A DNA stretch of 64,000 bases, from the IMG/VR virus record IMGVR_UViG_3300010396_000003, positions 1 through 64,000 of that record; one strand, given 5' to 3'. Shown one piece after another: positions 9,518 to 45,601 of the stretch. Both the position numbers and the translations under genes were made by a program. The stretch comes from a virus (lineage: Duplodnaviria > Heunggongvirae > Uroviricota > Caudoviricetes). How positions within the stretch are numbered: position 1 is the first letter of the stretch; each line of letters starts with the position of its first letter. The notes beneath the pieces were generated by a model. That model saw only the letters and a program-made list of their open reading frames with translations, searched no databases and had not been told where the DNA came from.

Positions 9518-10248
9518 TTCCTTTTTGTCCTAACCGACTCTTTTGATTTCGGATGGACTTCGATTCCACCAACAATCGATACAGCATCCTTTCCGAGCCT
9601 ATCTACAATCGGTTTGATCTTTTTTTCGTCCGGTGAGAGAAACTCCTTCTTTACAAGTTTTGGATTAGTGATTACAAAGATCCAGCTTCTGCGCAGCGAT
9701 ATGCCAGCCTGCTTTGGAACAGAGCTCTGAACCATTATTGGAGGCGGCGGTGCAGATGCGGCTTGTTCAAGGACGATATCGGCCGCTTCATGCTCGCCGG
9801 CTGCGGCCAATTCGGCAGCCTCTGTCATGGCTTGCGCTTCCTGCGCTTCTTTGGCGAGCCGTTGTTCTTCATCACGGCGTTCCTGATCTTCCTTTTCGCA
9901 TTTCTGACGCCAAGCCTCTCGGCGCTCCTGTAGAAGGAGGTCGGCCTGTTCGTAAGGGCGCAACAGAATTGAACGTATTCCGGTGAGGAACTTGTGAACC
10001 TTATTGGCCGCTTCGATCGGTTCATCTATGCCGCGCTTTACCTCATTCTTCCTAGTGGCAATGATAGTCATGAGTGAACCACTCGCCTCATAATCATCAT
10101 TTGAATTGATCTGTAAATCCTTCGCTTGTGCGAGCGCAACCAGCGATTCAGATAGCGACTTTTGGATCTTCCCGGCGTCATACGTCGGCGCCATTGGCGG
10201 CGCTTCTGGTATAGCGACCAAATCTTTCTGTTCTGTATCTGTAGTCAT
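9514..10248 (-). CDS. hypothetical acidic coiled-coil protein
   Basis: 244 aa with a Glu/Arg/Ala-rich helical segment. Immediately upstream of the SPFH gene and translationally coupled to it. Confidence 0.4.
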   Translation of the reverse strand: MTTDTEQKDLVAIPEAPPMAPTYDAGKIQKSLSESLVALAQAKDLQINSNDDYEASGSLMTIIATRKNEVKRGIDEPIEAANKVHKFLTGIRSILLRPYEQADLLLQERREAWRQKCEKEDQERRDEEQRLAKEAQEAQAMTEAAELAAAGEHEAADIVLEQAASAPPPPIMVQSSVPKQAGISLRRSWIFVITNPKLVKKEFLSPDEKKIKPIVDRLGKDAVSIVGGIEVHPKSKESVRTKRK

Positions 10249-11207
10249 TAACGTCCCTGTCCGGCGGTCATTGTCTTGTCTGGTTCTATAGTTTGGGTGG
10301 CGACAACATTACCAACTGTAATTGCGTTACGAATTTCCGACAGGAACCCTTGTATCGCATTCGGAGAATGCGGCAAAAGAATGGTGTTGCTGTGATTGCT
10401 GCCGGCAATTTTTGCCAGAGTGTCAAAGTATTGTGTCAATACAACCATTGCCACCGCATCTTGCGGGTCAGAGTGGGTGGCATTAGCAAGATCCTCTACC
10501 GACTTGCGCAAACCCTCGATAATCGCTTGGCGTTCTCCAGCGATACCTTCACCCTGTAGAATTTTCGACTGTTTCTCCGCTTCTGCTTCCGCTACTAATT
10601 TGATCCGGTTTGCTTCACCTTGAGCCTTTGCAGCTTGCTGGCTCCGCTGCGCCGCCTGAACGGCATTCATTGCTTCCTTAACATCAACACTTGGAATTAC
10701 GTCTTTTATGAGCGTCTTGACGACCTCGTAGCCATAGTTTTCCATTTGATCGTTCAACGCCTTCGTAATATCGCCTCCCACTTGCGACTGTTGAGAATAG
10801 ACTTCATCGAGGTTCAGCGACGGCAAATGTCCAAGAATCGTGTTGTATGCAAGCGACGCCATTTGCTTTGTTGGTTCGGATATGTTGTAAAAAGCCTCCA
10901 TTGCTTTGGCCGGAAGAATCTTGTACTGAATGGACAGCGGCATTGAGATAAAAGTACCATCCTTCGTTTTTGCCTCAACGTTTGTATCGAACTGTTGAAC
11001 CTTAAGACTTAACCTGGCAACAACTTTATCAGTGAATGGATTTTTGAAGTTTAGTCCGGATGTGGCTACACACTTGAACTTTCCGAAGCGCTGGACAATT
11101 GCCGCACTCGCCTGCTCAACAGTAAAGAAACTATTGAATGCGACAATCAAAACAAAGATGCAAAGGATAGCCAATCCGAATAAACCGAAAATTCCAGTAG
11201 CGCTCAT
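10248..11207 (-). CDS. SPFH/band-7 (stomatin/prohibitin/HflKC-like) membrane protein
   Basis: N-terminal TM helix, SPFH core (IVQRFGKF...) and a C-terminal AQGEANRIKLVAEAEAEKQSKILQGEGIAGERQAI coiled coil typical of band-7 proteins. Confidence 0.75.
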   Translation of the reverse strand: MSATGIFGLFGLAILCIFVLIVAFNSFFTVEQASAAIVQRFGKFKCVATSGLNFKNPFTDKVVARLSLKVQQFDTNVEAKTKDGTFISMPLSIQYKILPAKAMEAFYNISEPTKQMASLAYNTILGHLPSLNLDEVYSQQSQVGGDITKALNDQMENYGYEVVKTLIKDVIPSVDVKEAMNAVQAAQRSQQAAKAQGEANRIKLVAEAEAEKQSKILQGEGIAGERQAIIEGLRKSVEDLANATHSDPQDAVAMVVLTQYFDTLAKIAGSNHSNTILLPHSPNAIQGFLSEIRNAITVGNVVATQTIEPDKTMTAGQGR

Positions 11208-15352: not shown

Positions 15353-15627
15353 TTCTGATATTTCTCAACGAAATCTCCGACCTGTGATAGGGCAATCGCT
15401 TTTGCTACCATAGCATCGATTGAATTTTGAAGTTCCTTCTCTGCATCCGCCTGCACAAAATTCAAGCTACTATAGCTAATCGACTTCTCCGCTTTATGAC
15501 CATTACACTCCGCCGTGATCTTCTGACTGTATTTTGTTATTGCCACTATCGTCAGCGTCACCCTGTAATCGTCTTTCGTGACAATCTTCTCTATTTTTTT
15601 AGTTTGATCCATATATCCAAACCTCAT
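15346..15627 (-). CDS. hypothetical protein
   Basis: 93-aa ORF at the 3' end of the tail operon. Confidence 0.3.
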   Translation of the reverse strand: MRFGYMDQTKKIEKIVTKDDYRVTLTIVAITKYSQKITAECNGHKAEKSISYSSLNFVQADAEKELQNSIDAMVAKAIALSQVGDFVEKYQNQ

Positions 15628-18600
15628 AAATATCCCATAAAGGAGGTGTATTGACAGAAAATTTTACTTGAACCAAGTTAAGTGGTTGGTTGGGACTCAG
15701 AGATATGGTATCGGTCTGTAATGGACGTGAGCCTCCAACAAAACTGTAAATTGTGGTCCATGTATTGCCACCATCGAGACTATATGAAACAGTTCCATCA
15801 CCACTGTTTGGTCTAACCTGAGAAAGTAGATTTAGCGTTAACGCATTCCACTTCTGCGTGAGAGGAGGAAAGCCGGCGTGAATCCAATTTCTAGGTCCAC
15901 CAACTGCAATTGTTGCGAATGTAGAAAAATTACCGTCAGCCCATGCGATTAATGTGCCAGACGGTCCCATGGGTTGCCAGGCCGTGCTTATTCCATCATC
16001 TTGCAGTAGAGTTGGGGAAATTAATATATTGTTTCCACTTTGCGCGCCTGTTCCGCCATCGGAATTTCCTACAGTTCCCTGCGATGATCCGGCCGTCGCT
16101 GTTCTGATACTACCGACAAAAAATCTCCATTGTCCGTCAATGGCATTTTCTTTGATCGTATCGTGCTGATAAATTACAGTGCCTCCCTGAGGAACTGTAA
16201 TTCCAAGTGGTGGAGGATCATCGAAAAACACATAGATCAAAGTATCGTAAGGTAATCCTGTTATCGATGCGCCGGAAAAGTTAAGATCAGCATAACCGCC
16301 AAGTCGCATTGTAAATGGCGCAATTACAATTGTTGCGCTCGATCCACCATCCACACTCGTGAGGGGATTGCTTAGTGGAATGTAACCGGTCCATGCCGGC
16401 GATGCTGTATTAAGAGCTCCGCTTTCAAGATCTACCGCACCTGGTCCACTACCGGCAAGAAAGACCGGGAAAATATTGACACTTCCCAGTTGTTGCGTCT
16501 GATTTCCAAAAGAATTGAACGAGAGCGCTTGTAGAAATATCGTGCTTCCGACAAGAGATGGATCGTATTGATATGCGATCGATGCTTCATCTAATCTGAG
16601 AAACGTATCGTTTGTAGAATGGCTGCTAGCCGACGTTCCCATTAAACCGCGATAAAGTGTTGTCAAATTATAATCGGGTCCGGTTGGTGGCGTTCCTGCT
16701 CCAGTAAGGGTAGCTGTTTCATACGAAAGAAATTCATAATTTCCGTTCGTTATTATTACAGATAACGTTACAGGGAAACTCTGGCTTGCTGCCGCGCTAG
16801 ATACACTTTCTAATGTCGAAAGTGGTGTATTCATGGATACAGAAAGTGTGTTAGTAGTATCGGGATTTGAGCCACCATAGGATGCTAGGTTAGCCGTTAA
16901 TAGTCCATGCCTTGCAGGTGTGCTTACTTGACCATTTGGGCTTTGTTGTGTAATTAAAGGATTATAAGATGTTGTCGACCAGGCGGCCGCCTGTGGATTT
17001 GTAACCGGTGTACTTGAAATTGTTCCTGAATAGTTGGCTGTAAACCCGGCGCTACTTGCTGAAGCCACAGTCACAGATGTCTGATCAAGGATCGTATTGG
17101 TATCAAAAAATGTAACAACATCTCCGATCACAACTGCATTAGAACCAGTATTCGTTCCTGTTACAGTAAGGGTTCCGCCGCCGGCAACAACGTTCGTAAT
17201 TAATACACAAGAATGAACACCGAGTGCCATATAAATTGTGCAACCACCCCAATTCGGTGTATTGCCACTTACAAAAAGATAAAGAATATTGCCAGCATAA
17301 AGATTGGCGCGCGAAGGAACTTCGACAATGATAAGATTTGTGTCGCCCGCTGATAATTGTCCAATACCGACCGGCATAGATGGAATAATCGGCTGTTTCG
17401 GATAAAGACTTGGATTCCCGGTTGCCCAAGGAAAATCTTCGGCAGTAATCGTTATTCCCTTTTCAGGATCATCAACCATCTTAATAATGCGAGCCGCAGT
17501 GTTAGATAGCCCGAGAATTGAATCATTTATTTCGATGATATCCATTGGATCAAGCCAGATAAAAGTGCTCGGAACTCGGAAGATATAAGTGTTGCGAATA
17601 TAAACATTACGCTGAACCCTCATGTTCGCGGCGAACTGAGCTGCTGGTAATGTGCAAATAAAATCATAAGATTTCGGAGGTTCTAATCTTAAGCCAAATT
17701 GCTCAATTGCCGCGTCGTCAGATTCCACACATACGTCGCTGTTGTAATTATTAGTACGAACATTCCATTCAACTTCGACACGGTTATAAGCATCTTGCCA
17801 TGCGGAACGACTAACCTTGATCGGCGCTTCGGTCTTATCCATTACATAGTCGGAATCTCCGAATGAATACACAGGTTGAGTCGGGGGTGTATATTGAACA
17901 CCATTGGCAATTGCTGTCGTCGTTCCAAAAGGCATACATTTCATTACGCCTTCAGACCAAAACACACCAACTTGCCCGGCTTCACAAATTTCTCCTATGA
18001 CTGAGGCGACCGATCTCTGACTCTCAAGGAAAAGGCTTATAAAGAAATTGTTTGCCACCCAAAAATCGTGCGCAATTCCTTGTAGGCTATTATCAATAAA
18101 TGCTCCTTCAAACCCGATACCAAAGTAAGGATTTGTCAGTAATTGTTGGATGCAATCTGATGGAGAAGCATCTACGATACCATTTCCAAATTGATAAGGT
18201 CCGGCAATTTCAAAACTGAAATTTGGAACTTCTGGAGTATATCCAAGATAGAGTCCATTACTTGCTACATATGAAAGTTGTGTATATCCGATAGCTTCGC
18301 CAGGGAAATTTGAGCTTAAATATGACCAGGGCGCCTGCCCTTGAGCGCCCTCAAAAAATGTGAGGTTTAGAGTGTTTGGAGCATTGTTATCAATATTTGG
18401 ATTCTTATAACCATATTGAATTGTTACTCCCTGTCCGGCGTCGCCAGGATTGAATAGATACTTTCCGCTATTTGGATTGTATTCTCCAATTGAAGGACTA
18501 CCACTGGTCGGCGTTAACGGCACTCCAGATGGATAATACGATACACCGAAATCAGCATAATAATAAGGTTGATTATCTACCGTTATTTGATATGGCGGCA

Positions 18601-19231
18601 AGAATGGAACAATCGAAACCTCTTCGTTTATATTATTATATCTATAATAAGAATATGTGATTGTTATCTCTGACCCTGTATCTGCTGAGTTGAATGTATA
18701 CGTTCCCGTAGTAGGGTCAATATGGTATTGTCCGGGTCCTGGAGATGTTGAGACACGACTAAATGGGACTCGCTGCGTTCCGGAATACGTAATGGATCCA
18801 GGCGAGCCATAATCATTAACGGTGACACTATATGGCGAAGATTTCCCAGTTCCCTGGTCTTGCGCGAAAAGAGCTGCTTGGGATACCGTATAATTGTAAG
18901 AAGGTCCGGTAACTGTATATGTTTCCGATACATTTTGAACGACGAACTTACCCGTACTATCCCAAACACTTAGAAGATTTATACATTGACCGTAGCAAAG
19001 AATGGCAATAATCGACGCAGAATATACGTATTGCGTTCCAGACTTTCCTAGGCCGGACCCACCTGGTTGACTTGCCTTCTTTGATGAAAAGGCGCCGTAC
19101 CATACGAGCGTGGAAGCTATTCGGCGCTGACCAATAAGGATAGGAATGGCTTTACCAAGGATTGCTTGGTTTGTGAAAATGTGGTTGTATCGCGTTGAAA
19201 CATATTGCTGTCTTTGTGTTAACAATCCCAT
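15599..19231 (-). CDS. tail host-specificity/central fibre protein (GTA gp15 / lambda J-like position)
   Basis: 1210-aa Ser/Thr/Gly/Asn-rich beta protein immediately after the NlpC/P60 tail peptidase, in the position of the host specificity protein in GTA-like tail modules. Confidence 0.55.
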   Translation of the reverse strand: MGLLTQRQQYVSTRYNHIFTNQAILGKAIPILIGQRRIASTLVWYGAFSSKKASQPGGSGLGKSGTQYVYSASIIAILCYGQCINLLSVWDSTGKFVVQNVSETYTVTGPSYNYTVSQAALFAQDQGTGKSSPYSVTVNDYGSPGSITYSGTQRVPFSRVSTSPGPGQYHIDPTTGTYTFNSADTGSEITITYSYYRYNNINEEVSIVPFLPPYQITVDNQPYYYADFGVSYYPSGVPLTPTSGSPSIGEYNPNSGKYLFNPGDAGQGVTIQYGYKNPNIDNNAPNTLNLTFFEGAQGQAPWSYLSSNFPGEAIGYTQLSYVASNGLYLGYTPEVPNFSFEIAGPYQFGNGIVDASPSDCIQQLLTNPYFGIGFEGAFIDNSLQGIAHDFWVANNFFISLFLESQRSVASVIGEICEAGQVGVFWSEGVMKCMPFGTTTAIANGVQYTPPTQPVYSFGDSDYVMDKTEAPIKVSRSAWQDAYNRVEVEWNVRTNNYNSDVCVESDDAAIEQFGLRLEPPKSYDFICTLPAAQFAANMRVQRNVYIRNTYIFRVPSTFIWLDPMDIIEINDSILGLSNTAARIIKMVDDPEKGITITAEDFPWATGNPSLYPKQPIIPSMPVGIGQLSAGDTNLIIVEVPSRANLYAGNILYLFVSGNTPNWGGCTIYMALGVHSCVLITNVVAGGGTLTVTGTNTGSNAVVIGDVVTFFDTNTILDQTSVTVASASSAGFTANYSGTISSTPVTNPQAAAWSTTSYNPLITQQSPNGQVSTPARHGLLTANLASYGGSNPDTTNTLSVSMNTPLSTLESVSSAAASQSFPVTLSVIITNGNYEFLSYETATLTGAGTPPTGPDYNLTTLYRGLMGTSASSHSTNDTFLRLDEASIAYQYDPSLVGSTIFLQALSFNSFGNQTQQLGSVNIFPVFLAGSGPGAVDLESGALNTASPAWTGYIPLSNPLTSVDGGSSATIVIAPFTMRLGGYADLNFSGASITGLPYDTLIYVFFDDPPPLGITVPQGGTVIYQHDTIKENAIDGQWRFFVGSIRTATAGSSQGTVGNSDGGTGAQSGNNILISPTLLQDDGISTAWQPMGPSGTLIAWADGNFSTFATIAVGGPRNWIHAGFPPLTQKWNALTLNLLSQVRPNSGDGTVSYSLDGGNTWTTIYSFVGGSRPLQTDTISLSPNQPLNLVQVKFSVNTPPLWDIYEVWIYGSN

Positions 19232-19232: not shown

Positions 19233-19700
19233 TTAAATCCACCTGCGCAATCTAAAAAACCTGCGTTTTCTTCCCTTTAAAAATCCTTCATTGGTACCAT
19301 GCGATCCGGTAACGCCGATTCCTTTTACGGTATGAATAACAAAATTCGGCCAGTCTACAACGATTGCTCCGTGCGTATAACTCCAAGCTACTTTATAGAG
19401 AACGAAATCTGCGGCTTTAACATCTTCCTCTTTGATCTCATCTGTAAATCTCAACATCATTTCCAGATATTGTTTATCTTCGTACCCTTTGCGCAACCAT
19501 TGCTGTGGATCCCAATATGGAAGCTTAAAATCTTCCACATAACCAGCTTCCACCGACACTCCCTTCGGCAGACCGGCGCAATCACAACCAATTCCTTTTT
19601 TGTCTTCATGATCGTGATAGGGTGTTCCAATCCACGTTTTAGAAATTTCAACCAATGCGTTACGTTCAATTATTATACGATCTTCTTTGTTTATATTCAT
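19233..19700 (-). CDS. NlpC/P60 family tail-associated cell-wall peptidase
   Basis: GTPYHDHEDKKGIGCDCAGL (catalytic Cys) and a downstream SYTHGAIVV His motif; 155 aa. Confidence 0.75.
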   Translation of the reverse strand: MNINKEDRIIIERNALVEISKTWIGTPYHDHEDKKGIGCDCAGLPKGVSVEAGYVEDFKLPYWDPQQWLRKGYEDKQYLEMMLRFTDEIKEEDVKAADFVLYKVAWSYTHGAIVVDWPNFVIHTVKGIGVTGSHGTNEGFLKGRKRRFFRLRRWI

Positions 19701-20677
19701 TATAATGCTACCGTTGGATCGGGTACGAGTGGTTGACCACCGAAGTTTGTTTGATTATTAAAACCGTTAGTACACATATAAAGTGTCTTATTGCAGCCAG
19801 CATACATCGTAAAAGTATCTCCCGTCGCCACAGGAAATGGCATTGGAGCATTAAGTAAAATTTGAGTGTTGTTATTCAGGTTTTTAATGTAACCAAAAAG
19901 ACCCTTATTCTGCCCACTTGTAAAGACAACATAGCCCTGAGTGAAGGTGATAATTCCATTCCACCACGGTGCTGTGTCGGCACCGTTCGCAAGATTTATT
20001 TGAAGTGACGAGCTCCCTGACGCTACAGAATTAAATAATTGATAAGCAGCCCGATTTAACGTACAACCAGGACTAAATAATTGAAACCTGCAACTCGTTT
20101 GAATTAAGTTTGGAGGTGTAACCAGGTTCAGTTGGTATAACATATCTGCTACTTCAAATTCCGCATGATCACGTGCTAAATCGCCAATTTTAGTAACGGT
20201 CCCCAAAAAAGATGTGATAACGCCGCGATTCATTCCGATTGTATAATCCTCGCCAATTCCCCAGTAAAACGTGTAGACAGCTACCGTGGCCGCATCGAAG
20301 AGGCCAGAGGCGATAGTTTTCATAAGTGGAAATTCGGTTCCAGGATAAAATACAGTCGGCATCGCATTGGGATCGACACTGACTGTAAGAGACATCGTAT
20401 TTGCTTTAGGAGTATAGGAAGATTCATATTGAATCGCGCCCCTTTGCCATATTCCATATTTTGATGGGTAATATATTCCTGAAGCTGTCGAAAACCCAAA
20501 CGGGAATCCACCAAACGGACCAGAACCAAATCCAATGCCGGTCGTACTAACCGGGATCTGAGCAGTTGTCGCCGGTATAACCTCACCGTTGGCTAATACG
20601 ATAGCAAAGCAATCTGCTTTATTAACTGCCGTCGCGTTTTGTAACCATGTAATTAAAGAAGCTGGAAGATTCTTCAT
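19700..20677 (-). CDS. tail protein (DUF2163/BR0599-like position)
   Basis: 325-aa protein between the distal tail proteins and NlpC/P60, matching GTA-like tail synteny. Confidence 0.4.
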   Translation of the reverse strand: MKNLPASLITWLQNATAVNKADCFAIVLANGEVIPATTAQIPVSTTGIGFGSGPFGGFPFGFSTASGIYYPSKYGIWQRGAIQYESSYTPKANTMSLTVSVDPNAMPTVFYPGTEFPLMKTIASGLFDAATVAVYTFYWGIGEDYTIGMNRGVITSFLGTVTKIGDLARDHAEFEVADMLYQLNLVTPPNLIQTSCRFQLFSPGCTLNRAAYQLFNSVASGSSSLQINLANGADTAPWWNGIITFTQGYVVFTSGQNKGLFGYIKNLNNNTQILLNAPMPFPVATGDTFTMYAGCNKTLYMCTNGFNNQTNFGGQPLVPDPTVAL

Positions 20678-20684: not shown

Positions 20685-22232
20685 CTAATTAGCCAAAATA
20701 GGTAACACTTGTAAGGTGGAGGTGGTAAATCCCTGTGGGTCGTTTTTTAGAATTAGTGCGCCTGATGTTCCATTCGTCGAACAACGAAGAGTGAAGGTTA
20801 TATTAGCTCCAGCCGAATAAGTTACAGTGGAAAAACCTCCACCACCGCCGTTTTGGGTACCAACTGTGGTTGTACTCAAATTAGATGTGTGCGATAGTGC
20901 AAAATTATTAGTTCCGTCAGATACTGCGCAACTAACCTGTTGAAACGAAGCATTGTTAACTTCCACCGGCATCCAGTATCTAACATCAGCACGATATGGC
21001 CCCCCAGTGCCTGGAAATGTAACTCCGACACTAAGGATCGTTGTCGTACCGCTAATCGTCACGTTACTGGCAAGAGTTGCGGAGGCTAGTGTGGGTGTAT
21101 AACCAGCTCCTGTATTCGTCACTGTTTGATTGGGCCAAGTTCCTGTGACAGAAATTCCAGTTCCCGCTACCAAACCTGGGCTCGCTGTTCCCGTGCCACC
21201 GTTGGCTACGGATACGGGCGTCGACAATGCCACCGTTTGGTTTGGAAACGATCCTGAGACTCCGATACCAGTTCCCGCAACTAATGACGGAGACGCTGTG
21301 CCGGTTCCACCGTTTGCCACAGAAACTGGCGTAGAGAGTGCCACCGTTTGGTTTGGAAACGATCCGCTTAGCGATATTCCGGTTCCCGCCACCAAGGAAG
21401 GCGTCGCTGTGCCGGTTCCACCATTTGCCACAGAAACTGGCGTAGAGAGCGCCACCGTTTGGTTCGGAAACAATCCTGAGACCACGATTCCCGTTCCACC
21501 AACCAAACTTGGAGACGCTGTGCCCGTGCCGCCATTCGCCACGGATACAGGAGTAGATAAAGAAACGGTCTGATTTGGAAACGATCCGCTTACGCCGATT
21601 CCAGTGCCAGCCACCAGAGCCGGAGATGCTGTTCCGGTCCCACCGTAAGCAACGGCAAGAGGTGAAGAAAGAGTTAGAGACGTAAAAGAAGGCGATGCGA
21701 CCACCGCAACCGTCTGCGTCGGCCACGATCCCGTTACGGAGATATTCGAACCGGCGACAATCCCGCCACTACTTCCGCCAGCAGTACCGCGAGAAAGCTC
21801 AATCCATATAGAACCCTTAAGAAGTAATTCAAGACTAAATGCCGTCGAGCAATTAAACGTGCCGTTAAGCGAAAGATTCGTGCCACTACTTAGAGTTGTA
21901 TTCGTGTCGCCACACAGAAAGTGGATTACTTGCCCTTGAAAGCCGCCCGTAAAATTCGTGATCGCCGTAGCACCTGTATTCGCTGTAACCCAATTTGAAT
22001 AATTTGCAACCGATGGCGTCGGCGAATTGACAGTCAGTGTAGAAAATCCGCCGATAAGCGTATCCAACAGATTGTTGAAGTTATATTGCAGACACGCTCC
22101 CCAATTCGTCGTCGCCTGGAGAACCGGAACTTCAAACCCTACGTTCGTGGAACTGGTACACGTCTGTTGTGCTGACGCGCGCCCCGCACCGAATAAGAGC
22201 GCTAAAATAAAAATGAACATAAATTTCTTCAT
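20685..22232 (-). CDS. tandem-repeat beta-rich protein with Sec signal peptide (tail fibre/adhesin-like)
   Basis: Start reassigned to MKKFMFIFILALLFGAGRASA (GAGGA RBS 7 nt upstream; the supplied ORF extends to 22316). Five copies of a 37-aa repeat ALSTPVSVANGGTGTASPSLVAGTGIGVSGSFPNQTV. Confidence 0.5.
   Translation of the reverse strand: MKKFMFIFILALLFGAGRASAQQTCTSSTNVGFEVPVLQATTNWGACLQYNFNNLLDTLIGGFSTLTVNSPTPSVANYSNWVTANTGATAITNFTGGFQGQVIHFLCGDTNTTLSSGTNLSLNGTFNCSTAFSLELLLKGSIWIELSRGTAGGSSGGIVAGSNISVTGSWPTQTVAVVASPSFTSLTLSSPLAVAYGGTGTASPALVAGTGIGVSGSFPNQTVSLSTPVSVANGGTGTASPSLVGGTGIVVSGLFPNQTVALSTPVSVANGGTGTATPSLVAGTGISLSGSFPNQTVALSTPVSVANGGTGTASPSLVAGTGIGVSGSFPNQTVALSTPVSVANGGTGTASPGLVAGTGISVTGTWPNQTVTNTGAGYTPTLASATLASNVTISGTTTILSVGVTFPGTGGPYRADVRYWMPVEVNNASFQQVSCAVSDGTNNFALSHTSNLSTTTVGTQNGGGGGFSTVTYSAGANITFTLRCSTNGTSGALILKNDPQGFTTSTLQVLPILAN
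21130..21705 (-). repeat. five tandem 111-nt direct repeats inside gene 20685-22232
   Basis: Visible as near-identical DNA blocks. They generate the spurious alternate-frame ORFs 21064-21726 and 21130-21573. Confidence 0.7.
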
Positions 22233-22240
22233 TATTATCC

Positions 22241-23383
22241 TCATAGCAGAATAGACCTGAAAGTAACCTTGGAAATACTCCATAACTGATAAAGGGATTG
22301 TTCGGTTCCGTCCCAAGAATCAGTATTAAACCTGCAACGCTGATAGAACGTAAAATCAGCGGTGATTGGTTGTGCTGCCGGTGGCGCCCCGGCAAAAGTT
22401 ATAAGACCGTTAGGAAAAGATTGATCTGTCGTCGTCTGATTATAACCACTAGGGGAAGACCAACGTTCTAATTGCGCGCCCCAAGATTGAACGGTGACAG
22501 CCGAAGAAGCAGGTGGCTGTCTAATCATTCCAGTCATAATAGAATTTGGGAAACTATCTGTTGTCATTGTCACACTAAACCGCGACCATATACCAGAAAG
22601 ATTACATACGACTACGGATGATTGCGCAAATAAATCCCCTATCTGTATTTCAACGTTTGCTGTTCCGGATGCCACTCGAAGCCAAATTGAAAACGTATAC
22701 GTGGTATTCGATTCACTTGAAGTTGATTGGTAAATATAAGATGTCTGTGAACCACTTGTAGAAGGAAAAGAAATTGTAGCTGCGGTTGTAGTTCCATTTG
22801 GAGCTACGGCCGCATTATTTGTAACAACCGGATTAGAAGATGAACCTGTATTTCCAAGAATCCATACAGCAGGATTATCAAAAACTTCCGAATAAAGAAA
22901 AAGATTTTCTACTCCAAGATTCCATTGTTGTCCGGATGTTTGCGGCGCTTGGGGTATCGAGATACCGTTAATATAAACATTTGATGGGAATCCAAACTGA
23001 ATTAAATCTTGCATCCCATAACTGGTATTACGGACAAGTTGAAATTGACGATTTGAGCCGTCGCCGTAACCCAGAAGCTGACCGATACAACTTGAATCGT
23101 AAGGATCCTGGTATAGCCAGCTATTTGCCGCTCCTTGCATTTTTCCAAAAAATCCGACCAACTTCTGTATCGCCGAACTCGTTTGTGATGCCGTCCAATC
23201 GCCTTTAGCGTAAGGAATATCGACTTCATACATCCAAATCGGGAATTGCATTAGAGCAATACGGACTTCACCGCGCTCGTCGGATGGTGTTTGAACGAGC
23301 GATTTATAGACAGGATATTTTTTCACGGGAAAGGCAAGTGCCCAATTCCCTGGATCCTGTGAAGGGAAGATTATATTGCTCAT
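22241..23383 (-). CDS. distal tail protein (Dit/gp12-like position)
   Basis: 380-aa protein immediately after the tape measure gene (ATGA overlap). Confidence 0.4.
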   Translation of the reverse strand: MSNIIFPSQDPGNWALAFPVKKYPVYKSLVQTPSDERGEVRIALMQFPIWMYEVDIPYAKGDWTASQTSSAIQKLVGFFGKMQGAANSWLYQDPYDSSCIGQLLGYGDGSNRQFQLVRNTSYGMQDLIQFGFPSNVYINGISIPQAPQTSGQQWNLGVENLFLYSEVFDNPAVWILGNTGSSSNPVVTNNAAVAPNGTTTAATISFPSTSGSQTSYIYQSTSSESNTTYTFSIWLRVASGTANVEIQIGDLFAQSSVVVCNLSGIWSRFSVTMTTDSFPNSIMTGMIRQPPASSAVTVQSWGAQLERWSSPSGYNQTTTDQSFPNGLITFAGAPPAAQPITADFTFYQRCRFNTDSWDGTEQSLYQLWSISKVTFRSILL

Positions 23384-31205: not shown

Positions 31206-31727
31206 TTACGAAGTCTTCCCATTTGCGAGCGGTAAAGATACGCTTGGGTCTAGTAAAATCAAGGAAGGAAAGTTCTTCCAAACCTCAGAAATACCGCCAT
31301 CCTTAAATTGCATTCTCATTTCGTCTGTTGGGTTTGCCGGTAATTCCTCAAGATAGAAGTGTGGATTATCTTTTATGTGACACCACTTCGCACCTTCGGC
31401 AAGTCCGCACGATGGCGCCGTGGCAAGAAGTTTCTGCCAAGCCGGATGGCTTAAATTCCAGTCCGGCTGACCCGGCATAATATCTTCCGGAACAAGGTCG
31501 ACAGCATACCCAAAGTTGTGCGCCGAATAACCTCCCGGCGTGTTTGTTACGATCTCTCCCGGTTTCGTTCTTCCTTGAGCATAGAGATTGTCTTCCTGAG
31601 CCCAGGTTCTCATTCCTGCGGTTACTTGGAGCGATAGACTAGGAAGCAATTGATCAAGTTGTATGATGCGTCGCGCAAGTTCTGGATGTATTTCTTTAAG
31701 TCTAGCCTGGGATGTTGCTGTAAACAT
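31206..31727 (-). CDS. peptidase M15 family endolysin (L-Ala-D-Glu / D-Ala-D-Ala peptidase-like)
   Basis: VTAGMRT...GGYSAHNFGYAVDLVP matches the SxHxxGxAxD zinc-binding signature of M15 peptidases. Confidence 0.7.
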   Translation of the reverse strand: MFTATSQARLKEIHPELARRIIQLDQLLPSLSLQVTAGMRTWAQEDNLYAQGRTKPGEIVTNTPGGYSAHNFGYAVDLVPEDIMPGQPDWNLSHPAWQKLLATAPSCGLAEGAKWCHIKDNPHFYLEELPANPTDEMRMQFKDGGISEVWKNFPSLILLDPSVSLPLANGKTS

Positions 31728-32134
31728 TATCGAGACCCCGCACGAACATTATTCGGAATTACATAGATACCGTCGTTCAAGGCGACCGGAATGGTCCATA
31801 TCCAAATGATATGACGGTATGATTTATCGGGGGCGTAATGCCATAAAAGGTGGTTTAGCGTTACAGTTCCCATTGTGTATCCTGCGGCCGTACCCCATAC
31901 TCCGATCGTATTCGGATGTTGACCGATGAAGGGTGCCGTTTCTATACAAGATGGACAATTTATTTCTGCAAAACGCGTACTCGCTGCATCGGCAGAAAAC
32001 GCGGCTGCAAGGATCACATCGGATGCGAGTAATTCTTTATGGGAATTAATATAATGCCACGCTTTTCCAAGCGGATTAGCGGTTGCCGCGCCACAAAATA
32101 TCGATAGACAGATTAATAGAATTAACGTCTTCAT
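31727..32134 (-). CDS. secreted hypothetical protein
   Basis: Signal peptide MKTLILLICLSIFCGAATA. Overlaps the endolysin start (ATGA). Confidence 0.4.
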   Translation of the reverse strand: MKTLILLICLSIFCGAATANPLGKAWHYINSHKELLASDVILAAAFSADAASTRFAEINCPSCIETAPFIGQHPNTIGVWGTAAGYTMGTVTLNHLLWHYAPDKSYRHIIWIWTIPVALNDGIYVIPNNVRAGSR

Positions 32135-32223: not shown

Positions 32224-32631
32224 TTACTGCACGGTGGCGGTTGGATTGGTGGGGGTGTTGGGGTTGGAGGGAAAGCTAGACGGGATCGCCACCGTCGCTA
32301 CGTTGCTTGGTCCACTCGTATTACCAATCGAGTCGACAGTATAAACAACATAGCTGTAGGTGGTGCTTACTGATAGTCCAGCAGCCGGATCGAGGAAGCT
32401 TGTTCCCAATACAAGTGAAGAATTCGCTTTCGTCCAAGTGCCAGAGCTCGTCACACACGTTCCCGTACAACGATAAACATTGTAGCCAGCAATAGGATTA
32501 ACATCCGAACCCTGAGAGGCCGCAGTCCATGATGCCAAAACACCATGTTGTGATGCTCCAGGTGCCTGTGCCATCGCCGGCACAGCGGAGACAATCAAAA
32601 ACAACAAAATAGGAAATAATTTCTTAACCAT
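32224..32631 (-). CDS. secreted fibronectin-III-like domain protein
   Basis: Start reassigned to MVKKLFPILLFLIVSAVPAMA (AGGAG RBS). GYNVYRCTG...TYSYVVYTVDSIGNTSGPS is FN3-like. Confidence 0.4.
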   Translation of the reverse strand: MVKKLFPILLFLIVSAVPAMAQAPGASQHGVLASWTAASQGSDVNPIAGYNVYRCTGTCVTSSGTWTKANSSLVLGTSFLDPAAGLSVSTTYSYVVYTVDSIGNTSGPSNVATVAIPSSFPSNPNTPTNPTATVQ

Positions 32632-33660: not shown

Positions 33661-34281
33661 TTAGTAAGATCCGAAATGTAGTGTCCGGTACAACATTGAA
33701 TGCACGTGGATTTTATGTTTTGCCGTGTACGAATCCACCGCTTGGTTACCAGTTTTAACAGTCAACTGTGAATTATACGAACTCACGAAGGTCTTAAGTG
33801 GCAATGGAACCGTGCTCGATGCTAGAGATTCCCTCATGGTCACGGCTTGTCTGCAGTTCGGGATAACAGCTAGCACAGCTGTAACCGTGCCGGCAACAAG
33901 GGCGGACAGTGTAATGATTTTTGCCTGTGTCGCTTGATCTGAAATCTGCGCAAGAGACATAACCTGCGCTTCATCCGACGCGTAGGTATTGATTGCTGCC
34001 TGTAACTGTGAGCATGCGGTTGGAGCAGCACTAGCGGAAGCAGCAGCAAAGTCTGCCGCTAAAACCTTGATAGTTTCCGCGTCAGTATTGATTTTTGATG
34101 CGAGCGCAACGTTAATCGGCTGGCCCTTCGCAATGGCGATGATATTCAGGATGTTGATTAATGCTGGTGCGGCTGCAACCAAGATATTATCAACGGTGGT
34201 CACCCAAGAAGCGGAACATCCGGAAATTACCATCACAAAACACAACGACAGAGCCATAAGTGATTTTGAAAATAGTTTCAT
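33661..34281 (-). CDS. lipoprotein
   Basis: Signal peptide with lipobox VISGC. Ala-rich mature protein. Confidence 0.45.
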   Translation of the reverse strand: MKLFSKSLMALSLCFVMVISGCSASWVTTVDNILVAAAPALINILNIIAIAKGQPINVALASKINTDAETIKVLAADFAAASASAAPTACSQLQAAINTYASDEAQVMSLAQISDQATQAKIITLSALVAGTVTAVLAVIPNCRQAVTMRESLASSTVPLPLKTFVSSYNSQLTVKTGNQAVDSYTAKHKIHVHSMLYRTLHFGSY

Positions 34282-34311: not shown

Positions 34312-35547
34312 TTATTTCGCACCAATGCCAACAGTTTTTTCGACAACACCCATTGGATCGATAAGTACTTTATTTTCATAATTAAGAGTTTTGTATTCCA
34401 GCCACGCGGTCGCGATAACAATTACTGGACTTATTAAAACCTCGGCAAGTGAATGGGAATGTGGTGCCTGTGGATCGTGCGTCTTAACGGTATACCCCAT
34501 GCCCATTAGTAATTCTTTGAGTTTTAATCCTGGAGATTCTTCTGTTACTGGCGTGTTCGGCTTATAGCTTTGACCAAGAATTCCGATTGTACCGAAATTT
34601 CTGTAGTTACATTTGTTTTGGATTTCGGCTGCAATCGAATAAATTAATGCTTCATTTAGATCGTCGGTTGCTACAGAAAGCAACGGAGCTGTCAATCCTC
34701 GAGCCGTATACTGAAAAAGGCGATTGTCTCGCGGCAAACATGGACCTCCGTATGGCATTCCAAAACGCAAACAAGAACGCCCTACGCGTCGATCAGATCC
34801 GACCGCGTCCAAGACTACGTGTGGATTCGCGCCTAACTTCCTAGCAAGTGCCCCGACCTGGTTGGCAAAGCTAATTTTTGTCGTAAGGGCACAATTAACA
34901 GAGATCTTCGCCAGTTCAGCTTCGATCAATGTCATTACTTTGTATCCCTCTTGAACCTTGTAATTCATCCCACGCTCATATAATTCTGTTGTTAGATCCG
35001 CTGCTTTTTTGCTCGACACACCGAACAAACCGAAGTCTGGATATTGGAGATTATCGATAACACTTCCGAGAGCAATGAATTCAGGCTTATACACCAAGTG
35101 AAATGGAAGTTCCTGCATCGCTTCGCGCAATAATGGCAGAAAAACCTTCTCACAAGATCCAGGTGTGACCGTAGAATTGATGATAAAAACATAGTCAGAA
35201 ATACGGCGCGCATAGACCTCATGCGCAACAGATTTCATGGCTACAATTAGATATTCGTTGGAAAAACTGCCATCGGCAAGACTTGGTGTGAGGGTTATAA
35301 AGCAGCAAGCTTCTGTACCGCGGATAGCATCGAGGACTTGAGCTGTGGCGCGAAGGGTTCTGCCGTGCGTTTTCTTTATTAGACGTTCAAGACCCGGTTC
35401 TTGAACGGGAGCCCTACCGGTGTTAATTGCCAGTACTTTTGTTTCGTCAAGATCGAGGCCAACTACATTAACGTCATTTGCAGCAAATAACGCCGCAATG
35501 GGGCTACCCAACTTCCCCAAACCACATACACAAATGTTTTTGATCAC
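34312..35547 (-). CDS. UDP-glucose/GDP-mannose 6-dehydrogenase family (nucleotide-sugar dehydrogenase)
   Basis: N-terminal Rossmann ICVCGLGKLGSPIAALFA, catalytic GMPYGGPCLPRD (compare GGSCFPKD), 411 aa. Confidence 0.8.
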   Translation of the reverse strand: MIKNICVCGLGKLGSPIAALFAANDVNVVGLDLDETKVLAINTGRAPVQEPGLERLIKKTHGRTLRATAQVLDAIRGTEACCFITLTPSLADGSFSNEYLIVAMKSVAHEVYARRISDYVFIINSTVTPGSCEKVFLPLLREAMQELPFHLVYKPEFIALGSVIDNLQYPDFGLFGVSSKKAADLTTELYERGMNYKVQEGYKVMTLIEAELAKISVNCALTTKISFANQVGALARKLGANPHVVLDAVGSDRRVGRSCLRFGMPYGGPCLPRDNRLFQYTARGLTAPLLSVATDDLNEALIYSIAAEIQNKCNYRNFGTIGILGQSYKPNTPVTEESPGLKLKELLMGMGYTVKTHDPQAPHSHSLAEVLISPVIVIATAWLEYKTLNYENKVLIDPMGVVEKTVGIGAK

Positions 35548-35583
35548 GCACTACAGATACACAAAACGGTGAACCGATGATAA

Positions 35584-36315
35584 TTATTTTTTGTGGGGGC
35601 AATCTTCCCAGTGATAAGATTCGTTTCCAAGTGCCATGTCAATTAGATACCACGTTCCGTCTTTTGCTTTAGCAAAATCAATAGACCAATAATCTCCTAG
35701 TTCGGCGCCGGCTGCTTCAGCCAATGGCGTCAAAAAACTAATTTCTTCTTCCGGCTCATTGTTTAGAATAGCCAGTCGTTCTTTCCACGTTCCTTTGGTA
35801 CCTGGTTCGAATATCATCGGCTGCCCGTTAAAGACTTCTTCCGGCCAATAGGGATGATGACATTCAATTTTCCCGTTGCGGACAAAATAACGACGCTCGC
35901 GATTGATGGGCATTTCACCACGGAAGGCTTTAAATGAAATCTCGAGATCCAGGAATTCGCGGAATACAATTGCTTCATACGGCAAACCGAACAGACCTGC
36001 CAACTCATGGAATTCAAGAAGGGATACTAGGTTTTTGCTCAGTACATTCATATTGGGAACATAGCAAGTATTTTTCCACGAGTGTTTTTCTGACGACAAA
36101 TCGGTTCGAAGAAAAAGAGGGAAGCCAAATTTATCCGCCTCTTTCATGAGGTCACTAACAAGACCAGTAAAGTACGGACATTCATCCCCATCGAAAATCG
36201 GAAACACCTTCTCGCGATCTATCGGGATAATTTTCGTCCGCGGGACAGGAATGCCAAGCTTTGATACGCGCGGAAACCAATAGGTAAGGCTAGTTTTGTA
36301 TGGTTTAGAAGGCAT
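35584..36315 (-). CDS. ATP-grasp-like protein
   Basis: FPLFLRTD...EAIVFREFL...YWSIDFAKAKDGTWYLIDMALGNE resembles ATP-grasp motifs. Start set to the internal Met to limit overlap. Confidence 0.3.
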   Translation of the reverse strand: MPSKPYKTSLTYWFPRVSKLGIPVPRTKIIPIDREKVFPIFDGDECPYFTGLVSDLMKEADKFGFPLFLRTDLSSEKHSWKNTCYVPNMNVLSKNLVSLLEFHELAGLFGLPYEAIVFREFLDLEISFKAFRGEMPINRERRYFVRNGKIECHHPYWPEEVFNGQPMIFEPGTKGTWKERLAILNNEPEEEISFLTPLAEAAGAELGDYWSIDFAKAKDGTWYLIDMALGNESYHWEDCPHKK

Positions 36316-37141: not shown

Positions 37142-37818
37142 GTGTTCTCCATGACTGCTCGTAGTTTTTCGATTGCAGCCTCACGTTCCGGCCGCAATTT
37201 TTCATAAAGCAAATCGGGTCGATCTTTCATATGCCGATCAATGCGTTCCTGGTACGTTTGATCGCATTCCGATCTGCCAAACCAAAAGTGTAAATGATCG
37301 ACAATAATCGGCAAGCATTTTCTTCTATTTAATGCATTCGCGCAATCATTTAGAAATGTATCACCGTAATCGCTCGAAAACCAAGGCGCAATAAAGAAAC
37401 CAACAACGTCCGCCCAGCGTCTATGGACAAAACCGTGTGCGCCAAAATCTTTGTAATAGCCGCCGCTGTCGTATGGATGTGTAAACCAGATTTTATCTGA
37501 AGTTTGGGAGTAGAAATTCTCAACAATGATATCCCACCCATATGTTCGATAAACAACATCATCGTTTGACTGCTGCCATATATCTCCAGTGGCAATCTCA
37601 GCGCATTTATTCCAACAATCGCTCAACGTAATTCTCGGCCCAATAATCTTCTTAACTGCAAGTTGATCAGCCATAGCCGCACTTTCCGTATCATCGTTAT
37701 CGATGTATAGAATTATCTCAATTGGTTTCGATGAGGTAAGCCAAACCGATTCAATCATCCGTTGGAGGATTAGCGGTCGCTTACGCGTTGGCAGAAGTAC
37801 GCTGATCATATGCATCAT
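37138..37818 (-). CDS. glycosyltransferase (GT-A fold)
   Basis: ISVLLPTRKRPLIL and IILYIDNDD motifs. Confidence 0.45.
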   Translation of the reverse strand: MMHMISVLLPTRKRPLILQRMIESVWLTSSKPIEIILYIDNDDTESAAMADQLAVKKIIGPRITLSDCWNKCAEIATGDIWQQSNDDVVYRTYGWDIIVENFYSQTSDKIWFTHPYDSGGYYKDFGAHGFVHRRWADVVGFFIAPWFSSDYGDTFLNDCANALNRRKCLPIIVDHLHFWFGRSECDQTYQERIDRHMKDRPDLLYEKLRPEREAAIEKLRAVMENT

Positions 37819-45023: not shown

Positions 45024-45025
45024 CC

Positions 45026-45115: not shown

Positions 45116-45119
45116 GATA

Positions 45120-45206: not shown

Positions 45207-45216
45207 GTTATTTTTT

Positions 45217-45565: not shown

Positions 45566-45601
45566 ATTACGGCGATAATTACATTGATTACCAGATAGAA
45601 A

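What the first reader, a model, noticed from the sequence alone, without database searches (positions are those of the whole stretch)
20685..22232. Sec-signal-peptide protein with five 37-aa tandem repeats inside the tail operon
The repeats ALSTPVSVANGGTGTASPSLVAGTGIGVSGSFPNQTV are near-identical at the DNA level (111-nt period, 21130-21705), which implies recent expansion and a hot spot for length variation. The cleavable signal peptide (MKKFMFIFILALLFGAGRASA, strong RBS) is odd for a virion fibre. It could be a secreted or surface adhesin displayed by lysogens, or a fibre exported differently.
Basis: seen in the sequence. Interest (0 to 1): 0.6.

Follow-up and report, generated by a model that had tools for sequence, protein, structure and literature searches.

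The report
Sec-exported fibre protein in phage tail operon
A large soil phage encodes, in the middle of its tail-tip genes, a fibre-shaped protein with a genuine export signal and paired cysteines, and it belongs to a large undescribed family of exported fibre proteins, which is unexpected because tail fibres are normally built inside the cell.

Summary
The gene is real: minus strand, ATG 22232 to stop 20685, 515 aa, 8 nt after the distal-tail (Dit) gene and 7 nt before the hub gene of an RcGTA-like siphovirus tail tip. It has a textbook Sec/SPase I signal peptide (cleavage ASA|Q22) and five full 37-aa repeats plus a half unit.

The repeats are not near-identical in DNA. Units are 63-83 % identical, with 10-20 synonymous codon differences per pair, so they are old and the "recent expansion" idea fails.

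The signal peptide is not an oddity of one gene:
- About one in six repeat homologues carries one. Those have a median of 8 cysteines against 1 in the others (p = 4e-9).
- They sit at fibre positions in siphovirus-, myovirus- and podovirus-like contigs.
- Residues 22-148 form a conserved module placed directly after a signal peptide in more than 1,100 protein clusters. Its core is a beta-sandwich with a tailspike-type fold.

The contig has 34 tRNAs. I found no lysogeny gene among about 45 ORFs scanned, so display by lysogens is unlikely.

- **Best reading (0.4):** a side fibre that folds and oxidises in the periplasm and joins the tail at lysis.
- **Main rival (0.35):** an exported envelope-binding protein that never joins the virion.

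Export and the final destination are inferred, not shown.

The parts
20685..22232 (-). CDS of the 515-aa exported fibre-like protein (stop codon 20685-20687)
   Evidence: Translation and ORF list. The exact protein is on record on 3 contigs.
22238..22242 (-). Shine-Dalgarno-like GAGGA, 5 nt before the ATG; it overlaps the last base of the Dit stop codon
   Evidence: Sequence. SD-like motifs precede 27 of 61 window genes, against 8 % at random positions.
22170..22232 (-). Signal peptide, aa 1-21 (MKK / FMFIFILALLFGAG / RASA), predicted SPase I cleavage before Q22
   Evidence: Heuristic scan. The signal peptide plus Gln at +1 is conserved in 20 of 20 aligned family members. AF2 models aa 2-14/15 as a helix.
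21789..22169 (-). Conserved N-module, aa 22-148: N-terminal motif with helix 52-59, then a beta-sandwich (aa 61-150), with Cys25-Cys47 and Cys107-Cys128 as likely pairs
21675..21788 (-). Gly/Ser linker and half repeat unit (aa 149-186; IVAGSNISVTGSWPTQTV is the second half of a unit)
   Evidence: Sequence compared with the repeat units.
21120..21674 (-). Five full 37-aa repeats (aa 187-371), consensus ALSTPVSVANGGTGTASPSLVAGTGIxVSGSFPNQTV; likely the fibre shaft
   Evidence: TRF period 111. Unit table and identities. The motif is shared with 432 homologues.
20688..21119 (-). C-terminal domain, aa 372-515, beta-rich, with Cys435-Cys484 as a likely pair; likely the ligand-binding tip
   Evidence: AF2 predicts strands but with low confidence. 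It is 36 % identical over 142 aa to a stand-alone 205-aa signal-peptide protein next to the giant fibre in L027/L037. No Pfam match.
22241..23383 (-). Upstream neighbour: distal tail protein (DUF2460) with a weak, below-cut-off CBM_4_9-like match; candidate docking site
   Evidence: Pfam and PHROGs.
19700..20677 (-). Downstream neighbour: baseplate hub (Phage_phiJL001_Gp84_N + Phage_BR0599)
   Evidence: Pfam and PHROGs.
15599..19231 (-). Central fibre / host-specificity protein (Phage-tail_3 + Rcc01698_C), without signal peptide
   Evidence: Pfam and PHROGs.

Best explanation
The gene encodes a fibre-shaped binding protein. It is made late, together with the tail tip, and is sent through the Sec translocon instead of staying in the cytoplasm.

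Proposed steps:
1. It is co-transcribed and probably translationally coupled with the Dit and hub genes. The tight packing is shown; the coupling is inferred.
2. It is exported, and SPase I cleaves after Ala21 to expose Gln22. This is inferred from sequence, from conservation across the family, and from the fact that cysteine content tracks the signal peptide.
3. It folds oxidatively in the periplasm, with three disulfides (25-47, 107-128, 435-484). The pairing is inferred.
4. The 37-aa repeats form the shaft of an oligomeric, probably trimeric, fibre. The N-module sits at one end and a small variable domain at the tip. This is inferred from homology to phage fibres.
5. The canonical holin opens the inner membrane for the signal-less endolysin. 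The periplasmic fibres then meet the finished tails and dock by their N-module at the tail tip, most plausibly on the Dit protein encoded just upstream. They would serve as side fibres that bind a host surface glycan. This step is inferred and has no precedent that I know of or found.

I put the probability that the protein is truly exported at about 0.85. I put the probability that it ends up on the virion at about 0.4.
For: - Position: there is an 8-nt gap after Dit and a 7-nt gap before the hub, with no promoter- or terminator-like site on that strand.
- The signal peptide is canonical.
- Among 120 repeat homologues, 18 have a signal peptide. Those have a median of 8 Cys against 1 in the rest; Mann-Whitney U (MWU) test, p = 4e-9. 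Sixteen of the 18 have an even number of Cys.
- Signal-less homologues carry standard phage-fibre domains: Mtd_N, Peptidase_S74, Gly_rich_2.
- Signal-bearing relatives occupy the fibre position in other tail types:
  - after Baseplate_J in L002;
  - after Baseplate_J/Phage_Wedge1 in L032 and L042;
  - after the baseplate wedge in L027/L037, where the protein is 2524 aa;
  - in the fibre region of the baseplate module (Sheath_initiator, Phage_Wedge1, Collar) in L024;
  - in SU10-like podovirus tail modules, P0002 and L023.
- In L024 and L037 most or all of the long fibre candidates carry signal peptides.
- The endolysin has no signal peptide, so a hole-forming holin is expected.
- In my own knowledge, T4 fibreless particles accept free fibres in lysates (Edgar and Wood 1966). 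Late joining of fibres to particles is therefore physically possible.
Against: - I know of no tailed-phage virion protein that is Sec-exported, and five of my seven word searches of the paper library, those aimed at such a case, found none.
- The N-module is 38-45 % identical between phages whose baseplate proteins share no BLASTP similarity. A conserved docking partner on the virion is therefore not visible.
- A search for a shared small adaptor failed.
- N-module genes also occur away from fibre positions. One follows a portal gene (L035). Others lie in runs of exported fn3 and He_PIG proteins (L031, L043).
- Exported proteins with the same repeats also lie in MAG (metagenome-assembled genome) contigs whose neighbouring genes include housekeeping ones such as dnaA, miaA and lpxA-type genes.
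- The full-length AF2 model is poor (pLDDT 53), so the trimeric shaft is not shown.
- This phage already has a signal-less central fibre.
Confidence: 0.4

Rival explanations
1. An exported accessory protein that never joins the virion. After Sec export it binds a component of the infected cell's own envelope, or of the debris left after lysis: a polysaccharide, the outer membrane or peptidoglycan. Its N-module would be the anchor and its tip a lectin. It would mask receptors so that progeny are not lost on debris, block superinfection, or loosen the surface layer before release. This would work like T5 Llp or phi80 Cor in logic, and like Bdellovibrio MAT fibres in architecture.
For: - Export is well supported.
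- The N-module is conserved across siphovirus and myovirus contexts that share no other tail protein. That fits a host-side partner.
- The architecture (signal peptide, conserved domain of about 130 aa, fibre, variable tip) matches what is described for MAT proteins (PMC10769870).
- N-module genes occur at moron-like or non-structural positions (L035, L031, L043). There they sit among other exported proteins, including fn3 proteins and a He_PIG lipoprotein.
- Bacterial chromosomes encode exported proteins with the same repeats.
- Phage-encoded signal-peptide proteins thought to alter the host surface have been noted in P. gingivalis phages (PMC10367356).
Against: - The gene sits inside the conserved Dit-hub core of a late operon, not at a module boundary, and has no promoter or terminator of its own.
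- No other protein in the 64-kb window shares its tip, so it is not an obvious decoy of a virion receptor-binding protein.
- Relatives reach 2524 aa and occupy the position of P2 gpH after Baseplate_J/Wedge. That is costly for an accessory protein.
- Sec alone reaches only the periplasm. No outer-membrane export signal was found; there are no Pfam matches at all on the C-terminal domain.
Confidence: 0.35
2. An ordinary cytoplasmic tail fibre whose hydrophobic N-terminus only looks like a signal peptide. That N-terminus would be a buried anchor in the baseplate, or a signal that is not used late in infection.
For: The position in the tail operon and homology to fibres. No experiment shows export.
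Against: - The n-h-c organisation with AxA|Q recurs in hundreds of relatives, although the signal-peptide sequences themselves are not conserved.
- Cysteine content follows the signal peptide.
- No in-frame alternative start exists downstream of the signal peptide.
- The h-region is 14 residues, too short for a membrane span.
Confidence: 0.07
3. One reading: a lysogenic-conversion adhesin (a moron) expressed from a prophage and displayed on lysogens.
For: The signal peptide, and the adhesin-like composition: T, G, S and N make up 50 % of residues, and charged residues (D, E, K, R, H) about 3 %. The repeat region has a higher GC content (56 %) than its neighbours (43 %).
Against: - There is no promoter or terminator of its own, and the gaps to both neighbours are 7-8 nt.
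- GC3 is only slightly above that of the neighbours. The GC excess comes from Gly, Ala and Pro codons.
- The contig is a 152-kb phage with 34 tRNAs.
- No integrase or repressor was seen in about 45 scanned ORFs.
Confidence: 0.05
4. An assembly artefact: a collapsed or chimeric repeat array.
For: Tandem repeats are a known source of assembly errors.
Against: The units differ by 17-37 % in DNA, so they are easy to assemble. The reading frame is intact. The identical protein occurs on 3 contigs.
Confidence: 0.02

Closest known systems
Canonical phage side or long tail fibres (lambda Stf, T5 pb1 at the Dit collar, P2 gpH) - my own knowledge plus domain hits
   Same: Encoded in the tail module next to Dit or the baseplate wedge. 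Modular layout: N-terminal module, repetitive shaft, variable tip. Homologues carry Mtd_N, Peptidase_S74 and Gly_rich_2. Unit-number variation occurs.
   Different: Known fibres have no signal peptide and are assembled in the cytoplasm. Signal-less relatives here have a median of 1 Cys. This protein has a Sec signal and six cysteines. No Pfam or PHROG fibre family matches it.
Bdellovibrio bacteriovorus MAT (mosaic adhesive trimer) fibres (PMC10769870)
   Same: [quoted passage not shown]
   Different: MATs are chromosomal genes of a predator and are shown to be on its surface. This gene is in a phage tail operon. Sequence relatedness to MATs was not tested. No PDB sequence, including the solved MAT fragments, matches at E<=1.
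Phage envelope-acting exported proteins: T5 Llp, phi80/T1 Cor, lambda Lom/Bor (my own knowledge)
   Same: Phage-encoded, carry a signal peptide, lie next to receptor-binding genes, and act on the host envelope.
   Different: Those proteins are small lipoproteins or outer-membrane barrels, often with their own promoter. This one has no lipobox, is 515 aa, is fibre-like and is embedded in an operon.
Streptococcus mitis phage SM1 PblA/PblB (my own knowledge)
   Same: Phage tail-fibre-like proteins that also function on the bacterial surface.
   Different: PblA and PblB lack signal peptides. They reach the surface through phage lysis and re-binding. Here export is by Sec.
CBA120 TSP4 N-terminal domains, phage depolymerase beta-sandwich (Pfam PF25692 Phage_depo_C)
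   Different: The window protein itself does not reach PF25692, with no hit at E<=1. Here the domain is N-terminal, follows a signal peptide and carries a conserved Cys pair.
Signal-peptide proteins of Porphyromonas gingivalis phages that obey the Bacteroidetes Q-rule (PMC10367356, PMC5837995)
   Same: Phage genes with SPase I signals that expose Gln at +1. In this family Gln at +1 is invariant in 20 of 20 members.
   Different: Those are proteins of unknown function in Bacteroidota prophages and were not reported as fibre-like. The likely hosts here are Acidobacteriota-like, and the phage uses SD sites.

Membership tests
Sec/SPase I-exported protein | Positively charged n-region, hydrophobic h-region of 7-15 residues, small residues at -3 and -1 | tested here: met
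   MKK / FMFIFILALLFGAG / R-A-S-A|Q. The same layout appears in 20 of 20 aligned relatives. SignalP was not available; I used a heuristic.
Sec/SPase I-exported protein | Actual translocation and cleavage | not testable with these tools
   Only indirect evidence: cysteine number tracks the presence of a signal peptide (median 8 against 1, p = 4e-9).
Bacterial lipoprotein (SPase II) | Lipobox L-x-x-C at the cleavage site | tested here: not met
   There is no Cys at +1; the first Cys is residue 25.
Virion tail fibre | Encoded within the tail or baseplate module | tested here: met
   It lies between Dit and the hub. Relatives follow Baseplate_J/Wedge1.
Virion tail fibre | Homology to recognised fibre proteins | tested here: met
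   The repeat is shared with proteins that carry Mtd_N, Peptidase_S74 and Gly_rich_2. The N-module fold matches tailspikes. No direct Pfam or PHROG hit exists.
Virion tail fibre | Trimeric fibrous shaft | tested here: inconclusive
   The monomer AF2 model has pLDDT 53, with only short strand pairs per repeat. No multimer prediction was available.
Virion tail fibre | Cytoplasmic assembly (no export signal) | tested here: not met
   A signal peptide is present.
Virion tail fibre | Presence in purified virions | not testable with these tools
   This is a metagenomic contig. There is no relative among 50,697 deposited phage records.
MAT-type secreted fibre (Bdellovibrio) | [quoted passage not shown] | tested here: met
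   The module covers aa 22-148, gives 1112 hits, and starts at residue 22-30 in about 100 of the top hits, whose lengths range from 127 to 2136 aa.
MAT-type secreted fibre (Bdellovibrio) | Sequence or structural homology of the N-domain to MAT N-domains | not tested
   No MAT N-domain sequence or structure was at hand. PDB sequence searches found nothing.
MAT-type secreted fibre (Bdellovibrio) | Chromosomal gene of the displaying bacterium | tested here: not met
   The gene is in a phage tail operon. N-module genes were in phage-like contigs in every context I examined.
Moron / lysogenic-conversion gene | Own promoter and terminator, position at a module boundary, deviant composition | tested here: not met
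   Intergenic gaps are 7-8 nt, with no sites on the minus strand at the gene's ends. GC3 is 0.43 against 0.33-0.36 for the neighbours, and the GC excess is confined to Gly/Ala-rich repeats.
Pfam PF25692 Phage_depo_C | Score above the Pfam cut-off | tested here: not met
   No hit at E<=1 for aa 22-186. The relationship is only transitive, through P0218, P0222 and P0272, plus fold similarity.
RcGTA-like tail tip (the surrounding genes, not the finding itself) | DUF2460, Gp84_N/BR0599 hub, Phage-tail_3 + Rcc01698_C in that order | tested here: met
   To my knowledge the RcGTA cluster has no gene between Dit and the hub, so this gene is an insertion into the block.

The most novel reading that the evidence does not exclude
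A whole class of soil phages with siphovirus-, myovirus- and podovirus-like tails, probably infecting Acidobacteriota, routes its receptor-binding fibres through the Sec pathway. The fibres would fold and form disulfides in the periplasm and be mounted on cytoplasmically built tails only when the holin opens the membrane. This would be an extracytoplasmic step in tailed-phage assembly, which to my knowledge has not been described.
Probability: 0.35. Interest if true: 0.9.

Novelty: new variant of a known kind. Interest (0 to 1): 0.72.

Why it matters
Tailed-phage virions are taught as cytoplasmic assemblies. If fibres encoded at the canonical fibre locus are exported, there are two possibilities:
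- Virion completion has a periplasmic or post-lysis step in these phages. That would explain how fibres can carry disulfides for harsh soil conditions.
- Phages of several tail types devote large late genes, up to 2,524 aa, to decorating or masking the envelope of the cell they are about to lyse.

Either outcome changes how fibre-locus genes in soil viromes should be annotated and how they are used for host prediction.

The conserved unit of signal peptide plus N-module (more than 1,100 clusters, no Pfam model) is a ready handle for finding such genes. The question is directly testable by virion proteomics or export fusions.

Tried and rejected
**Searches that found nothing**
- Pfam and PHROGs on the protein gave no family. 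Pfam gave none on its N- and C-terminal parts at E<=1.
- tblastn against 50,697 phage records found no match.
- PDB sequence searches with the protein, with the N-module profile (A4) and with alignment A2 found no match.
- A word-based homologue search with the N-domain gave one weak hit. Only the exhaustive HMMER search revealed the family.
- Using the hub protein to find sister phages in IMG/VR found nothing, so I could not compare the Dit-hub junction in close relatives.

**Models and libraries**
- Full-length AF2 was too poor to use (pLDDT 53).
- The afdb50 fold library was not available.

**Ideas tested and dropped**
- A decoy copy of a virion receptor-binding protein. No paralogue of the N-module, the repeats or the tip exists in the window.
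- A conserved signal-less adaptor upstream of the signal-bearing fibres, or an adaptor that carries the same beta-sandwich. BLASTP and an HMM built from A4 gave nothing below E of about 1.
- N-glycosylation. Sequons are enriched (17 against 9.8 +/- 2.6). Five of them are the NQT of the repeat, which is equally conserved in signal-less homologues, and none has Asp or Glu at -2. I read the motif as structural.
- A Bacteroidota host, suggested by Gln at +1. SD-like motifs precede 44 % of the genes. The repeat family maps mostly to Acidobacteriota MAGs, 11 of 19 loci.
- A T9SS C-terminal sorting domain. No Pfam match on the C-terminal domain.
Full report
**1. The observation**

The gene lies on the minus strand. 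Its ATG is at 22232 and its stop at 20685-20687, giving 515 aa. The upstream gene ends with TGA at 22243-22241. GAGGA lies 5 nt before the ATG, and no in-frame ATG, GTG or TTG follows within the signal-peptide codons. The hydrophobic N-terminus is therefore part of the product.

TRF reports a 111-nt period with 4.4 copies, 74 % matches and a score of 437. In protein there are five full 37-aa units, aa 187-371 (window 21120-21674). They are preceded by the second half of a unit at aa 158-175.

The claim that the units are near-identical in DNA is wrong:
- Pairwise DNA identity is 63-83 %, while protein identity is 73-92 %.
- Between 10 and 20 of the roughly 30 codons for identical residues differ per pair.

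The array is old and the protein sequence is conserved, so this is not a recent expansion. The identical 515-aa product is on record on three contigs, which argues against a collapsed repeat. Unit number does vary in the family: P0002 and P0012 are 92 % identical except for one clean 37-aa indel.

**2. The setting**

The window is part of a 152-kb metagenomic contig (ENA ERZ27256653).
- Almost all genes are on one strand, and GC content is 47 %.
- It holds 34 tRNA genes at 44.9-57.9 kb.
- It holds RecT, an exonuclease, a head protease-like gene, neck proteins, an M15 endolysin and a sugar-modification cluster.
- I saw no integrase or repressor among about 45 ORFs scanned.
- SD-like motifs precede 27 of 61 genes, against 8 % at random positions.

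The gene order around the finding is:
1. A 969-aa protein, probably the tape measure.
2. DUF2460 distal tail protein with a weak CBM_4_9-like match (E 1.6e-4, below Pfam's cut-off).
3. The gene of interest.
4. Gp84_N/BR0599 hub.
5. A 155-aa minor tail protein.
6. A 1210-aa protein with Phage-tail_3 and Rcc01698_C.

This is the RcGTA-type tail tip. To my knowledge that block has no gene between Dit and the hub, so the gene is an insertion into a conserved core. The gaps to its neighbours are 8 and 7 nt. No promoter- or terminator-like site lies on its strand at either end. Its higher GC content is confined to the Gly/Ala/Pro-rich repeats, and GC3 is only slightly raised. It is not built like a moron.

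**3. Is the signal peptide real?**

The layout is MKK / FMFIFILALLFGAG / RASA|QQ. Only four other gene-sized ORFs in the window look similar. Three lie in the 31.7-34.3 kb stretch next to the endolysin gene, one of them with a lipobox; the fourth lies inside the tRNA cluster.

The stronger evidence is comparative:
- Of 120 listed homologues that share the repeat, 18 have a clear signal peptide by a crude rule, and a few more do by eye.
- Those 18 have a median of 8 cysteines in the mature part, and 16 of the 18 have an even number.
- The other 102 have a median of 1 (Mann-Whitney p = 4e-9).

The window protein has six cysteines, at positions 25, 47, 107, 128, 435 and 484. Cysteine content that follows the export signal is what one expects if these proteins fold in an oxidising compartment. 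I could not run SignalP, and nothing here shows cleavage.

**4. The repeat family**

The search found 432 proteins that share the motif GGTGTxxPxLVAGxxIxxxGxWPNQT.
- Signal-less members start like ordinary fibres. They carry Mtd_N, Peptidase_S74, Gly_rich_2 or SO2946-like_C domains.
- No Pfam model covers the repeat, and no PDB sequence matches it.

A scan of species-representative genomes with the motif gave 19 loci. Eleven are in Acidobacteriota MAGs; others are in Verrucomicrobiota, Hyphomicrobiales and Cytophagales. In 13 of the 19 the protein has a signal peptide and many cysteines. Their neighbours, pooled across loci, include both phage genes (Mu-type and P23-45-type portals, terminases, GH25) and housekeeping genes (dnaA, miaA, hflX-type and lpxA-type genes). 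P0057 also lies in a bacterial-looking context. Exported proteins with this repeat are therefore encoded by both bacteria and phages.

**5. Signal-bearing relatives in other phages**

| Locus | Tail type and position |
|---|---|
| P0004 (L002) | Follows Baseplate_J and an 884-aa protein in a myovirus-like module |
| P0002 | SU10-like podovirus module, next to a Pel9A-like beta-helix protein (likely tailspike) |
| P0044 (L023) | SU10-like podovirus module, next to a Gp53-like fibre; the neighbouring 261-aa protein also has a signal peptide |
| P0070 (L024) | Myovirus baseplate module; four fibre-region proteins (659, 1112, 583 and 395 aa) all have signal peptides |

**6. The N-module**

An exhaustive HMMER search with aa 22-186 gave 1112 representative proteins at E<=1e-3 and 123 at E<=1e-10. 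In about 100 of the best hits the match starts at residue 22-30, directly after a signal peptide. These proteins are 127-2136 aa long and mostly cysteine-rich.

In a 20-sequence alignment:
- Gln22, the residue after the cleavage site, is invariant.
- So are N30, W44, L56, D57, G62, P73, N93, G100, Q101, D109, W143, E145 and R148.
- C107 and C128 are nearly invariant.

AF2 with this alignment models aa 61-150 as a beta-sandwich at pLDDT 93-97. Residues 22-60 are modelled with less confidence and contain a short helix.

| Search | Best matches |
|---|---|
| Foldseek (PDB) | TSP4 residues 1-335, E 1e-4 |
| Foldseek (BFVD) | 150 hits at E<=1e-3, many of them tail spikes and fibres |

Signal-less small proteins hit by the same search (P0218, P0222, P0272) match Pfam PF25692, the C-terminal beta-sandwich of phage depolymerases. 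The window protein itself does not match it. The module is therefore a phage tailspike-type domain that has been placed behind a signal peptide.

**7. Where N-module genes lie**

- Directly after Sheath_initiator / Baseplate_J / Phage_Wedge1 in three myovirus-like contigs, the position of P2 gpH:
  - L032;
  - L042;
  - L027/L037, where the protein is 2524 aa with 29 Cys and is flanked by two further signal-peptide proteins.
- After the portal gene in the same 70-kb contig as L037 (L035).
- In runs of exported proteins with fn3 and He_PIG domains next to methyltransferases (L031, L043).

All contexts I examined are phage-like. The window's C-terminal domain is 36 % identical to the 205-aa signal-peptide protein next to the giant fibre of L037. 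Apart from these fibre-like proteins, no tail protein of the window has a BLASTP match in those phages. I found no shared adaptor either.

**8. Interpretation**

What is shown:
- The gene, its operon position and the repeat structure.
- The family relationships, the fold of the N-module core, and the link between signal peptide and cysteine content.

What is inferred:
- Export and disulfide formation.
- Oligomeric fibre structure and ligand binding.
- The final destination of the protein.

Two readings fit.

(A) The protein is a virion side fibre that matures in the periplasm and is mounted when the holin opens the inner membrane. The endolysin has no signal, so a hole-forming holin is expected. 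Late attachment of free fibres to particles is known for T4 in vitro (my own knowledge). Reading A best explains three things: the operon position, the gpH-equivalent positions, and the genomes in which all long fibre candidates carry signal peptides.

(B) The protein is exported to act on the infected cell's envelope or debris and never joins the virion. Reading B best explains three other things: the independence of the N-module from baseplate type, the non-structural locations, and the existence of bacterial exported relatives. It also parallels Bdellovibrio MAT fibres, which have a signal peptide, a conserved N-domain of about 130 aa, a fibre and a variable tip (PMC10769870).

I give A 0.4 and B 0.35. 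The remainder goes to:
- a non-functional signal (0.07);
- a lysogenic-conversion adhesin (0.05);
- an artefact (0.02);
- something I have not thought of.

**9. Novelty**

Five of my seven word searches of the paper library, those aimed at a Sec-exported tail fibre, found no description of one. The nearest published note is that P. gingivalis phages encode signal-peptide proteins of unknown function that obey the Q-rule (PMC10367356). The family has no Pfam or PHROG model and no relative among deposited phage genomes. I rate it a new variant of a known kind: phage fibre proteins, but exported. The finding deserves follow-up.

Noticed in passing
window 44935-57850: There are 34 tRNA genes, all on the minus strand, covering nearly all amino acids. 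The phage contig has 47 % GC, while related phage loci and likely hosts have 54-61 %.
   Followed up: no
window 34312-39964: A sugar-modification cluster lies between the head genes and the lysis/tail genes: UDP-glucose/GDP-mannose dehydrogenase, R2K ATP-grasp, two GT2, FkbM methyltransferase and a GT1-like protein. It could modify virion proteins or host polysaccharide.
   Followed up: no
window 31727-32134, 32224-32631, 33661-34281, 48246-48725: Four more exported-looking proteins. Two are small proteins with A|Q cleavage sites and an fn3-like 'SW...GYNVYR' motif. One has a lipobox (VISG|C). One lies next to the M15 endolysin. Similar small exported fn3 proteins occur in L031 and L043.
   Followed up: partly
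A4 alignment; loci L004-L037: Gln follows the predicted SPase I site in 20 of 20 N-module proteins. It also does so in 5 of 9 signal-peptide-like ORFs in Acidobacteriota MAG loci and in 10 of 23 in the related phage loci. This resembles the Q-rule, which has been described as specific to Bacteroidetes (PMC5837995).
   Followed up: partly
window 22241-23383: The distal tail protein (DUF2460) has a weak CBM_4_9-like match at aa 224-278 (E 1.6e-4, 22.5 bits against a cut-off of 25.9). If real, it would be an 'evolved Dit' that may itself bind sugar or hold a fibre.
   Followed up: no
L024 3159-12936; L031 7995-17891: Runs of four to six consecutive signal-peptide proteins in phage contigs. They include a 1659-aa protein with 50 cysteines and a He_PIG/TIG lipoprotein.
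   Followed up: partly
P0002 vs P0012: These near-identical exported fibre proteins (92 %) differ by exactly one 37-aa unit. Unit gain or loss therefore happens in this family.
   Followed up: yes
window 59202-63461: An ABC-type ATPase and a 596-aa OmpA-family protein with an N-terminal membrane segment are encoded in the phage contig.
   Followed up: no
window 6436-8226 and 10248-11207: A HerA/DUF87-type ATPase with a weak terminase-like PHROG match, and an SPFH/Band_7 protein, lie downstream of the tail module.
   Followed up: no
window 22781-22814 (+ strand): A 15-bp-stem hairpin followed by a T-rich tail lies on the antisense strand inside the Dit gene.
   Followed up: no
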